Source: Pocillopora damicornis
Taxonomy: Eukaryota
Assembly (NCBI RefSeq): GCF_003704095.1
Contig: NW_020843886.1
Span: 1-64,000 of the forward strand
DNA: 64,000 bases
Direction of reading: 5' to 3'
Shown one piece after another: positions 13,101-16,100 of this stretch; within the stretch, counting starts at the first letter, position 1, and each line of letters begins with the position of its first letter. The position numbers are program-made.

Positions 13101-16100
13101 AAATGGCAATCCAAAGTGAGGTAAAAATCATCTCTGAAATGGATTGTGGCGAATGTTTTGCCTTGGTCAGTCCTGCGGTAGGTAACACTTTTTCTCCTAA
13201 AAAAATTTTCGGTCTGAGTTATAATATTGCATTCTAATTTACTTTCTAGCATAAATTTGTTTGAATACTCTAGTTAGCAGTAAGTGCTTAACTCCGCATA
13301 GAGAGATGCAGGTTTATCCAGGGCCAGGGGTTGACAACCACAATACATTTAATAGTGGCTTACCCACTGTAATTAACCTGCTCAGTGTTGGGTTTGACTC
13401 TACCATAGAACCTACGGTTTACAACTCTTCTGAAAATAGGTCAGCTGGGCACCCTGTTTGCATTCTGCAATCCGTAAGTGCAAGTTTGGCTGAAAAATCT
13501 GTGAATCGATTCTTTTTTAATAGTCAACCACCATTGGCGTCCAACATCTACTTGCAAAAAGTGAGGAGAGGTTATTTCCTGGCGCTTGTGTCAAGCTGGT
13601 CACCACATATGTTGGAGAGCAAAACACTCTTCGTGAAGACAAAGTCAGGATGGCACTGCTTAGTGGAAAAGCGAGACTGGTCATTCTCATTCCTACCAAG
13701 GTATGGCTTTAGTACTAGTGATGTCTTAATAATAAAACTTCTGTGTTCGTATTGATTGAATCTCCCAAAAAAAAAAATGAAAATTTTTTTCTTCCTCAGT
13801 ACTGAAAACATTCATATAATTTCCTCTCTTCATTCTCAACCTCATTATTAAAAATTGCGAGTGCACTTACCATTCCAATTTGGCTTTACATAACAATATT
13901 TTATTTAATTGCTATTAACAACTGGTTATCAATTAATCAATTAATTGCTTTTATTCATGATCTTCTAATTAGTGTTTTCAGAGTTCCCTACTGACAGCAG
14001 TCTTGCGACTGGAGGCGTTACCTCTTAAGATAGTCAGTTGTTTCAAGTTGTAAATAACAAAAGAAACCAACATAAAGAACCCAATGATTTTCAGTCGGCA
14101 AAACGTTTTTTAGAATCTTAGAGAGAGCTTCTCTTCCTACAACACGTTGAAGTGCTAACTGCTGCTAGTAGTTGGATTATGACAATCCACGAGAGGTACT
14201 TCCTGGTTAACAATCATATGATTTTAACCTCCCACAATCGCGTGTAAAACCCAGAAAGCACTAATCAATAAAGGTAACTTTCTGTATTCTTAGGTTCATC
14301 ATACGCCAACCGATGGCCTTGAGAATCAAAACTATTCAGGTACAAAACTTAAAATTTAATTCACAAGTCCAGTTGGAATTTTTGTGATACAAGATTACCC
14401 TATGGAGCTTTACCTAGGTCTTAATTACAAGTCAAGTAAGGTTCTGGTGTTTTGACTTGCCAAATATCAAGCACTCAGGTCAGGGAACAGAATAGCTCAA
14501 TTGTTATGTNNNNNNNNNNNNNNNNNNNNNNNNNNNNNNNNNNNNNNNNNNNNNNNNNNNNNNNNNNNNNNNNNNNNNNNNNNNNNNNNNNNNNNNNNNN
14601 NNNNNNNNNNNNNNNNNNNNNNNNNNNNNNNNNNNNNNNNNNNNNNNNNNNNNNNNNNNNNNNNNNNNNNNNNNNNNNNNNNNNNNNNNNNNNNNNNNNN
14701 NNNNNNNNNNNNNNNNNNNNNNNNNNNNNNNNNNNNNNNNNNNNNNNNNNNNNNNNNNNNNNNNNAGAAAGAAAGAAAAATAGATGGCAGGATAGTTGTG
14801 TTTATTTAAAAGAAATTGTTCACTGATCCTTTTCATTTCCCATTTCAAAGTTACGGGTATGCCAAAACTGGACCGAGACGCCCTTCAAAGCTGTCACGTA
14901 GATCTTATTGCCAATATTGGGGACTTTACATCGTTATGTGCCTATCTTTATCAATACAATATCTTGACGGCCGATGATAAGGCATTTCTGCGAAGTTTTC
15001 CACGTCCATCAGATGGCATCGATCACTTGCTAATGATGATACCCAGAAAAGGGAATATTTTAGACATTTTCATACGTATCTTGCAGCAATCACGAGAAAA
15101 TCAAGAAGCTGCCAAACGTTTAGTGTTGAAACGTCTACAGTTACACAGAAAGACAGAGAGTAAATGACTTAATGTGTGATTGAATACATTTTAAAAATTG
15201 GTTGTTCACTACTCGACACAATGTTTCATTACAACTAGTTTTTCACAGGAAACAACACTCTGTCGTTATACACATTAATAACCAAGCAAGAACTCCTGCT
15301 TTGTACACATTGCTTAAACTTTATTAGCTTAAGATGTACAACCTCTGATATCCTCTATTCAGGACTTCAAACGCCTTATCCTGAACACTTTTTAAGATAA
15401 ACTACTACTAACGAAGTAATATGAATTAAAATACCTGGCAAAGAGTTTCATCTAGGGGTGAGAGAATTTCAGATGTTAAGATCCCTTAACGTACCAAATT
15501 ATCTGTGAACTTTTTACTTACCTTTTTGAAAATTTTTGTGAAATATGTCAGCGAGATTCGATCTCTATCTTAGTTTTTTGTCTGACTCAATCGATTAAAT
15601 TAAAACAAAAGGAAATATACACAGTATAATGCCTCTAGTCTATGGACGCTGAAGTTCACTCAATGGAACCTCATCTCTGATGATTATCAGGTTGAGTTCA
15701 GGTTGAGTTCAGGTTGAGTTCAGGTTGAGTTCAGGTTGAGTTCAGGTTGAGTTCAGGTTGAGTTCAGGTTGAGTTCAGGTTGAGTTCAGGTTGAGTATAA
15801 AGCTGGCAACTGAATGATGCAGTCAGAAATTTCTTTCTCTTTTCCCTTTCCACTCTTTACAACAGTGATATCTGCGATACTTGTGACTTGGTTTCCTTAT
15901 GAAGGAAGAAAGTAATAGTTGTGATTACTGGGAAGAAAACATCAGTTCCCCTACAGGAACAAAGTTCCTTGCATTTTCAAGTAGTTTTTTACTTCAAAAG
16001 AATAATAACTGACAACTTTACGACTCAATCCAGCTATACTGACCTTCATCCATTTGAAGGCTACTAAAACCTAACACCTCTCAGTAAGTGTAAACAACTC

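What the first reader, a model, noticed from the sequence alone, without database searches (positions are those of the whole stretch)
14851..15167. CARD exon inside the cluster: CARD-only protein or C-terminus of a UPA-CARD adaptor
Seen: an intact CARD ORF with its own ATG and a good acceptor 8 nt upstream. It is on the same strand as adaptor B, about 0.8 kb after its last identified exon, with a 256-N gap between. Inference: either a CARD-only regulator or a spliced UPA-CARD protein that could bridge DD-less ZU5-UPA receptors to a CARD caspase, replacing the DD-RAIDD link.
Basis: partly seen in the sequence, partly recalled or inferred. Interest (0 to 1): 0.68.

Follow-up and report, generated by a model that had tools for sequence, protein, structure and literature searches.

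The report
Stand-alone CARD gene beside TNFR-like receptors
This is a real, intact caspase-recruitment-domain (CARD) exon that most likely encodes a small CARD-only protein of its own, not the tail of the neighbouring gene; it is an ordinary new member of a well-known family.

Summary
A 123-codon open frame (14796-15167, +) has an ATG at 14859, a stop at 15165-67 and a pyrimidine-rich AG acceptor 8 nt before the ATG. Its 102-aa product passes Pfam's curated CARD threshold. Protein-language-model neighbours are about 100-aa CARD proteins. A 5'-truncated paralogue at 33648-33884 gives dN/dS 0.21.

- Exon 13524-13700 ends in phase 0 and the CARD acceptor needs phase 1. A direct join stops after 16 codons.
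- All 4 of 4 paralogues of the upstream "adaptor" continue from that exon through a conserved donor and a short intron into a mini-exon. That mini-exon has an in-frame stop within 1-9 codons, followed by ATTAAA.
- Adaptor B therefore ends at 13803-05, about 1.05 kb before the CARD ATG.
- No adaptor exon could be shown to be ZU5 or UPA. Only the minus-strand TNFR-like receptor exons give weak ZU5 hits.

Best reading is a separate CARD-only gene whose 5' exon or promoter lies in or near the 256-N gap. This rests on sequence alone: no transcripts and no eukaryotic homologue search were available. Ordinary; modest interest.

The parts
14822..14850 (+). Putative 3' splice site: CTGAT branch-like motif, pyrimidine tract, AG at 14849-50
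   Evidence: Read. 16 of 20 pyrimidines lie upstream of the AG; 1.3% of 3738 + strand AGs reach this. Predicted from sequence only.
14851..15167 (+).
14874..15107 (+). CARD domain proper (residues 6-83 of P0001)
   Evidence: Pfam PF00619, E 2.5e-6, 27.9 bits against cut-off 23.9. The Atlas feature neighbours are CARD clusters at score 0.92. Six helices are predicted, in a low-confidence model.
15425..15430 (+). First ATTAAA after the stop (candidate poly(A) signal, 258 nt downstream); a second lies at 15594
   Evidence: Weak evidence: the hexamer is common in this AT-rich DNA.
14510..14765 (.). 256-N run between adaptor B and the CARD exon; it may hide the CARD gene's 5' exon or promoter
33648..33884 (+). 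5'-truncated paralogue of the CARD exon. It aligns to residues 32-96 at 80% aa identity, lacks the ATG, the acceptor and helix 1, and has a 1-nt deletion near the 3' end
   Evidence: dN/dS 0.21 against copy 1. No Pfam CARD hit at E<=10.
13302..13473 (+). Adaptor B exon x (context: the upstream gene)
   Evidence: AG acceptor at 13300-01 and GTAAGT donor at 13474. It is in frame with exon y across a 50-nt intron. It aligns only weakly to exon x of copies A and C.
13524..13700 (+).
   Evidence: Paralogous to 23914-24081, 39542-39709 and 3032-3211.
13800..13852 (+). Adaptor B mini-exon z: acceptor TTTCTTCCTCAG, then TAC TGA (stop at 13803-05), then ATTAAA at 13847-52. This is the predicted end of the adaptor B gene
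   Evidence: The same layout is seen in 4 of 4 paralogues.

Best explanation
The exon belongs to a small gene of its own that encodes a 102-aa CARD-only protein (pI about 9.3). Translation starts at ATG 14859. The pyrimidine-rich acceptor 8 nt upstream implies a short, probably non-coding, 5' exon and promoter in the roughly 1 kb between the end of adaptor B (about 13850) and 14850, much of it inside the N run.

Inferred, not shown: the protein acts by homotypic CARD-CARD contacts. It would either seed or cap the CARD filament of a partner such as a CARD-bearing caspase or adaptor encoded elsewhere in the genome. Which of the two it does is open.

The gene lies tail-to-tail with a minus-strand receptor gene that has TNFR cysteine-rich repeats and a ZU5-like exon. 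It was duplicated together with that receptor; the second copy was then truncated.
For: Shown:
- CARD identity: Pfam above the curated threshold; 20 and 8 of 30 Atlas feature hits fall in the two CARD family sets, and the top cluster representatives are 103-116 aa.
- Coding constraint: dN/dS 0.21 over 65 codons, with differences by codon position of 12/4/17.
- The ATG is the first in-frame ATG after a stop and lies 5 residues before profile position 1.
- Adaptor B and its 3 paralogues all end in a mini-exon with an in-frame stop after 1-9 codons and ATTAAA 17-51 nt later (4 of 4).
- The y-exon donor is phase 0 in 4 of 4 copies, while the CARD acceptor needs phase 1.
- tblastn finds no CARD after adaptor copies C or D. 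After copy A the only one is the truncated copy, 9.5 kb away.
- The duplication block that carries CARD copy 2 runs downstream into the receptor (14937-18825 matches 33648-38529), not upstream into an adaptor.

Inferred: a Met within the 3 codons after an acceptor would occur by chance in about 6.5% of internal exons (assuming 2.2% Met).
Against: - No transcript evidence of any kind is available.
- The strong acceptor shows that some upstream exon is probably spliced on. Its content is unknown and may lie in the N run, so upstream coding sequence cannot be excluded.
- A phase-1 acceptor at a domain boundary is also what a shuffled domain exon would look like.
- 13 AG..GT open segments of the right length class exist in 13701-14509 and could formally bridge exon y to the CARD frame.
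- The 3D model is low confidence (pLDDT 54), and Foldseek gave no match at E<=0.001 among 75 listed.
- No partner (caspase, NACHT, DD) is in the window.
- The poly(A) and stop arguments for adaptor B are predictions from sequence.
Confidence: 0.6

Rival explanations
1. The exon is the last coding exon of a larger protein whose upstream coding exon(s) are not adaptor B's known exons. They would lie in the 256-N run or in 13850-14509.
For: The acceptor is strong, and its phase-1 position lies exactly at the domain boundary. Introns in this locus are short, from 50 to about 360 nt, so an upstream exon would fall in or next to the gap.
Against: An ATG sits 8 nt after the acceptor and 5 residues before the domain start. 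No ORF of 30 aa or more in 13701-14509 has any family hit. The nearest Atlas clusters are about 100-aa proteins, though metagenomic fragments could mimic that.
Confidence: 0.2
2. One reading: adaptor B (ZU5/UPA-like) is spliced to the CARD exon, giving a CARD8/NLRP1-like UPA-CARD protein.
For: The two units share a strand and are adjacent. The best PDB sequence match of the CARD is the CARD of CARD8, but at a non-significant E of 0.079 (0.077 with the two-copy profile). A candidate upstream ORF, 12965-13237, has a GT at 13182 in phase 1 that would be frame-compatible (my reading).
Against: - A direct y-to-CARD join is out of frame and stops after 16 codons.
- 4 of 4 adaptor paralogues end in mini-exon z with a stop and ATTAAA.
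- No conserved exon lies downstream of z in any copy.
- There is no CARD next to copies C and D.
- No adaptor exon could be shown to be ZU5 or UPA.
Confidence: 0.05
3. The ORF is a recently dead or unexpressed relic of a duplicated cluster, like copy 2, with no present function.
For: The cluster is in flux: copy 2 is truncated and receptor copy 3 appears to lack its cysteine-rich exon. Pairwise dN/dS cannot say which lineage carried the constraint.
Against: The frame is intact with ATG, stop and acceptor. The domain still passes the curated Pfam threshold. dN/dS is 0.21 even though one partner is truncated.
Confidence: 0.12

Closest known systems
Vertebrate CARD-only proteins (CARD16/COP, CARD17/INCA, CARD18/ICEBERG)
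   Same: Both are about 90-110-aa proteins consisting of a single CARD. Their expected mode of action is homotypic binding to another CARD. INCA caps the caspase-1 filament (PMC11874512, passage read; PMC3775265, listing and start of abstract only).
   Different: From recall, not from a call: those genes arose by duplication of the caspase-1 CARD and lie beside CASP1. Here no caspase is in the window, and no caspase CARD appears among the PDB sequence matches at E<=10. This is a functional analogy, not family membership.
C-terminal UPA-CARD fragments of CARD8 and NLRP1 (FIIND-CARD)
   Same: The CARD of CARD8 is the top PDB sequence match. ZU5-like sequence is encoded nearby. In NLRP1 and CARD8 the UPA promotes CARD filament formation (PMC11874512, passage).
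   Different: The match is not significant (E 0.079 and 0.077). The CARD here is not covalently joined to any ZU5/UPA-like exon as far as the sequence shows. The ZU5-like exons belong to a receptor on the opposite strand.
RAIDD/CRADD (CARD-DD adaptor of the PIDDosome)
   Same: It is a small CARD adaptor that links a ZU5-UPA protein (PIDD1) to a CARD caspase (PMC9162469, start of abstract only).
   Different: No death domain is found in the ORF or anywhere in the window.
Viral CARD-only proteins (e.g. grouper iridovirus GIV-CARD, 91 aa)
   Same: Similar size and a single-domain layout (PMC4457926, start of abstract).
   Different: This is a cellular locus with introns and tandem paralogues. No sequence comparison with the viral proteins was made.

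Membership tests
CARD domain (Pfam PF00619, death-fold superfamily) | Sequence match to the family profile above the curated gathering score | tested here: met
   27.9 bits against 23.9, E 2.5e-6, profile positions 1-77 of 85. No Death, DED or PYRIN row was reported at E<=10.
CARD domain (Pfam PF00619, death-fold superfamily) | Six-helix antiparallel bundle | tested here: inconclusive
   AF2 predicts six helices (6-20, 23-32, 38-45, 53-60, 67-75, 79-100), but mean pLDDT is 54 and pTM 0.45. Foldseek against PDB gave 0 of 75 matches at E<=0.001; CARD entries appear only among noise.
CARD domain (Pfam PF00619, death-fold superfamily) | Homotypic binding to another CARD | not testable with these tools
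   No partner was identified in the window, and no complex job was run.
CARD-only proteins in the architectural sense | The whole protein is one CARD, with its own start and stop | tested here: inconclusive
   ATG 14859, stop 15165-67 and 102 aa are met. The acceptor 8 nt upstream and the N run leave the 5' end of the transcript unknown.
Caspase-1-derived COPs (CARD16/17/18) | Descent from, and linkage to, a caspase-1-type CARD (defining feature recalled) | tested here: not met
   No Peptidase_C14 hit among 447 ORFs. No caspase CARD appears among the PDB sequence matches at E<=10.
FIIND-CARD proteins (CARD8/NLRP1 type) | ZU5-UPA directly N-terminal to the CARD in one polypeptide | tested here: not met
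   Phase mismatch and a stop after 16 codons on a direct join. Adaptor B ends at 13803-05, as do 4 of 4 paralogues at the equivalent place. An unseen exon in the N run remains possible.
FIIND-CARD proteins (CARD8/NLRP1 type) | Recognisable ZU5 and UPA domains in the upstream exons | tested here: not met
   No ZU5 or UPA row for adaptor exons at E<=10. PDB profile searches gave nothing relevant. hhalign against the receptor exons gave probability below 1%. The Atlas gave no usable hit. Exons were tested singly; a joined model was not searched.
RAIDD/CRADD | CARD followed by a death domain | tested here: not met
   The protein ends 19 residues after the CARD. There is no Death hit in the window.

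The most novel reading that the evidence does not exclude
The CARD-only gene and the adjacent convergent receptor (TNFR cysteine-rich ectodomain, ZU5-like cytoplasmic exon, no death domain found) were duplicated as a pair because they work as a pair. On this reading the receptor's ZU5/UPA-like tail would cluster and, in trans, seed filaments of the free CARD protein, which then recruit a CARD caspase. That would be a split, receptor-driven version of the UPA-promoted CARD filaments of CARD8 and NLRP1, in what looks like an invertebrate. The evidence neither excludes nor supports this beyond linkage and co-duplication.
Probability: 0.07. Interest if true: 0.7.

Novelty: new member of a known kind. 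Interest (0 to 1): 0.3.

Why it matters
On the best reading this is one more small CARD protein in an expanding death- and immune-receptor cluster of an unidentified, apparently invertebrate genome. It is useful for annotation but not surprising.

It would matter more if the CARD were shown to signal for the neighbouring death-domain-less TNFR/ZU5-like receptors. That would give a testable link between ZU5-UPA modules and CARD filaments outside vertebrates. In the passage I read of PMC11508797, FIIND-CARD is listed for human NLRP1 and some fish NLRPs and not for the invertebrate NLR types. That paper's Table S1 was not visible to me.

Tried and rejected
- Structure of the CARD: AF2 on a 2-row alignment gave pLDDT 54. 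Foldseek against PDB then gave nothing at E<=0.001 (best E 2.4), with CARD entries scattered among unrelated hits. I treat this as uninformative.
- Structure of the receptor's ZU5-like exon: pLDDT 31.5. It was unusable, so no fold search was run.
- CARD subfamily: PDB phmmer and a 2-sequence profile both put the CARD8 CARD first, at E 0.079 and 0.077, among chance rows. The subfamily is left unassigned.
- Identity of the adaptor: Pfam at E<=10, PDB phmmer and profiles, hhalign against receptor exons and the Atlas on exon y of B all gave nothing. A 10-residue likeness between adaptor exon x and the receptor's ZU5-like strand region is below any threshold.
- Bridging exons: 13 AG..GT open segments of length 1 mod 3 exist in 13701-14509. 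None has a good site pair or any homology, so none is proposed.
- ORF 12965-13237 has a phase-1 GT at 13182 that would fit the CARD acceptor. I rejected this as a model because it would skip exons x, y and z.
- A TATA-like TATTTAAAA lies at 14804-12. It is too weak in AT-rich DNA to argue for a single-exon gene.
- No conserved exon was found downstream of exon y or z among the copies, even with lenient tblastx.
- The genome-contig collection (bacteria and archaea) was not scanned, as it is irrelevant to a eukaryotic CARD.

- homologues in the large protein sets;
- metagenome and viral contigs.

As a result, orthologues, their domain architecture and the source organism remain unknown.

Full report
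**What is there**

The window is AT-rich DNA (GC 0.32-0.43 per 2 kb) with four N runs, one of them 14510-14765, 256 bases. On the + strand a stop-to-stop frame runs 14796-15167 (123 codons). Its first ATG is at 14859 and its TGA at 15165-67, giving the 102-aa protein P0001.

Eight bases before the ATG lies an AG (14849-50). It follows a CTGAT branch-like motif and a tract with 16 of 20 pyrimidines. Only 1.3% of the 3738 AGs on this strand are that pyrimidine-rich. The distance from 13700 to 14851 is 1150 nt, 256 of them N.

I do not take this contig for human, for three reasons:
- its introns are 50 to about 360 nt;
- its gene content is unlike human;
- the CARD reaches only a non-significant match to human CARD8.

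The N runs were left as they are.

**Is it a CARD, and is it coding?**

- Pfam gives CARD (PF00619) at E 2.5e-6 and 27.9 bits against the curated 23.9. Residues 6-83 cover profile positions 1-77 of 85.
- I scanned all 447 stop-to-stop ORFs of 45 aa or more in the window against Pfam at E<=0.01 (150+150+147). This is the only death-fold hit. There is no Death, DED, PYRIN, ZU5, UPA, caspase or NACHT hit.
- The ESM Atlas feature search places P0001 among CARD clusters: score 0.92, 203 of 256 features shared, and 20 and 8 of 30 hits in the two CARD family sets. The top representatives are 103, 105, 103 and 116 aa long.
- AF2 on a two-row alignment predicts six helices but at pLDDT 54. Foldseek against PDB then found nothing at E<=0.001 among 75 listed matches. 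The fold is therefore consistent with a CARD but not demonstrated.
- PDB sequence searches put the CARD of CARD8 first, but at E 0.079 (single sequence) and 0.077 (two-copy profile). The subfamily stays open.

**A second copy**

Self-comparison shows a segmental duplication, 14937-18825 against 33648-38529, at 75-82% nt identity. It carries a second CARD copy at 33648-33884.

- Copy 2 aligns to residues 32-96 at 80% aa identity.
- It has lost the acceptor, the ATG and helix 1, because it abuts another duplication (30414-33633 against 44986-49615).
- It no longer hits Pfam CARD at E<=10.
- Over the 65 shared codons dN/dS is 0.21 (dS 0.56, dN 0.12), with differences by codon position of 12/4/17.

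The sequence has therefore evolved as coding DNA, although a pairwise value cannot say in which lineage.

**The neighbours**

On the minus strand there are TNFR cysteine-rich exons at 9479-9793 (E 3.5e-10) and 18166-19395 (E 5.8e-21). The next exon of the second receptor (17383-18033) and its paralogue (37072-37692, 76% identical) give weak, sub-threshold ZU5 hits at E 0.095 and 0.039, the latter covering profile 10-95 of 97.

They contain a strand, THYFATFAVVG in one copy and TDHFTTFAVVG in the other. From recall, this resembles the HFS strand of ZU5 domains. A PDB profile search found nothing, and AF2 failed at pLDDT 31.5. 'ZU5-like receptor' is thus plausible but weakly supported, and no death domain was found.

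The CARD gene and this receptor are convergent, and the pair was duplicated together.

**The upstream 'adaptor'**

Exon 13524-13700 (y) is in frame with an exon at 13302-13473 (x) across a 50-nt intron with GTAAGT and TAG ends.

Paralogues of y lie at 23914-24081 (A), 39542-39709 (C) and, more weakly, 3032-3211 (D). Paralogues of x lie at 23154-23336 and 39184-39366.

A and C show coding constraint: y has dN/dS 0.23, and x has pN 0.32 against a saturated pS of 0.80. These are real exons.

None of them, searched exon by exon, matches ZU5, UPA or anything else:
- Pfam at E<=10;
- PDB phmmer and profiles;
- hhalign against the receptor exons;
- the Atlas.

A joined model might reach a domain that single exons cannot, and that remains untested.

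**Fusion or separate gene?**

Three results bear on this.

1. Phase. The CARD frame needs one base from the preceding exon (phase 1). Exon y ends on a complete codon (phase 0). The one frame of y that would fit has three stops. Read in its real frame and joined directly, the message runs 16 codons into the CARD exon and meets TAG at 14899-14901.

2. The adaptors end on their own. In all four copies the y exon ends at the same codon position with G|GTA: B at 13700, A at 24081, C at 39709, D at 3211. An intron of 99, 353, 317 or 186 nt follows, then a mini-exon z with a strong acceptor (pyrimidine fraction 0.75-1.0). B and A share TTTCTTCC(T/C)(C/T)AG. The in-frame stop comes after 1, 9, 8 and 1 codons (B at 13803-05; A at 24462-64; C at 40051-53; D at 3401-03). 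An ATTAAA follows 17-51 nt after the stop. Even without splicing, each frame stops within 12 codons of the end of y. No conserved exon follows in any copy.

3. Distribution. tblastn finds no CARD after copies C or D, and after A only the truncated copy 9.5 kb away.

Adaptor B thus most likely ends about 1.05 kb before the CARD ATG. A fusion would need an unseen exon of length 1 mod 3 and skipping of z. Thirteen open AG..GT segments could formally serve, and the N run could hide another, but nothing supports any of them.

**Most likely working**

The gene encodes a CARD-only protein starting at ATG 14859. That ATG is the first in frame after a stop, lies 5 residues before the domain, and has G at -3. 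The strong acceptor suggests a short 5' exon. Given the short introns here, that exon and the promoter probably sit in or beside the N run. Candidate poly(A) signals are ATTAAA at 15425 and 15594.

The function is inferred from the family. CARDs act by homotypic contacts and filament assembly, and small CARD-only proteins can cap such filaments, as INCA does for caspase-1 (PMC11874512, passage read). Whether this one seeds or caps, and what its partner is, cannot be told from the window.

I put 0.6 on the stand-alone CARD-only gene, 0.2 on a larger protein with hidden upstream coding exons, 0.05 on the adaptor B fusion and 0.12 on a non-functional relic.

**Comparison and novelty**

It works like the vertebrate CARD-only proteins but is not a member of that caspase-1-derived group. 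There is no caspase linkage and no caspase CARD among the sequence matches.

It is not shown to be a FIIND-CARD protein. In NLRP1 and CARD8 the UPA is needed for efficient CARD filament formation (PMC11874512). In the passage read of PMC11508797, FIIND-CARD is listed for human NLRP1 and some fish NLRPs and not for the invertebrate NLR types; that paper's Table S1 was not visible.

My searches for TNFR together with ZU5 or UPA returned 8 and 16 papers, judged from titles and abstract starts. None obviously describes a TNFR-ZU5 receptor, but this is not a claim of absence from print.

Verdict: a real feature, a new member of a known kind, of modest interest.

**Limits**

- No transcript data were available.
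- The organism is not identified.
- Both structure models were of low confidence.

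Noticed in passing
window 16486-19395 (-), 36174-38529 (-), 8424-9793 (-): Three minus-strand receptor-like genes carry TNFR cysteine-rich repeats. Two of them have a large exon with weak ZU5 hits and no death domain found. The strand that recalls the ZU5 HFS cleavage motif reads YFA in one copy and HFT in the other. Copy 3 seems to lack the cysteine-rich exon, which may lie at the N run 38532-38631.
   Followed up: partly
It is under purifying selection (A against C) but has no recognisable domain.
   Followed up: partly
window 30414-33633 and 44986-49615: A second segmental duplication (82-89% nt identity) carries minus-strand FDX-ACB (phenylalanyl-tRNA synthetase-type) and BMT5-like methyltransferase exons. 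Its end truncates CARD copy 2.
   Followed up: partly
window 43567-44001: A 435-nt stretch matches its own reverse complement at 77% (a palindrome or foldback), possibly a foldback-type mobile element.
   Followed up: no
window 56843-57370 and 57928-58325: Inverted repeats of about 200-255 nt at 78-93% identity, roughly 1 kb apart, look like the termini of a transposon or a local inverted duplication.
   Followed up: no
window 13474-13523: A 50-nt intron (GTAAGT...TAATAG) lies between adaptor B exons x and y. Introns in this locus are generally short, 50-360 nt, pointing to a compact, probably invertebrate genome.
   Followed up: no
window 51946-53624 (+), 60494-61561 (+): Unrelated housekeeping or adhesion genes flank the cluster: NAD(P)H-hydrate dehydratase (Carb_kinase) exons, and a 356-aa exon with three cadherin repeats.
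   Followed up: no
window 11069-11387 and 11782-12055; 26557-26758 and 27430-27647: Local direct repeats at 66-77% identity lie in non-coding DNA between the cluster genes.
   Followed up: no
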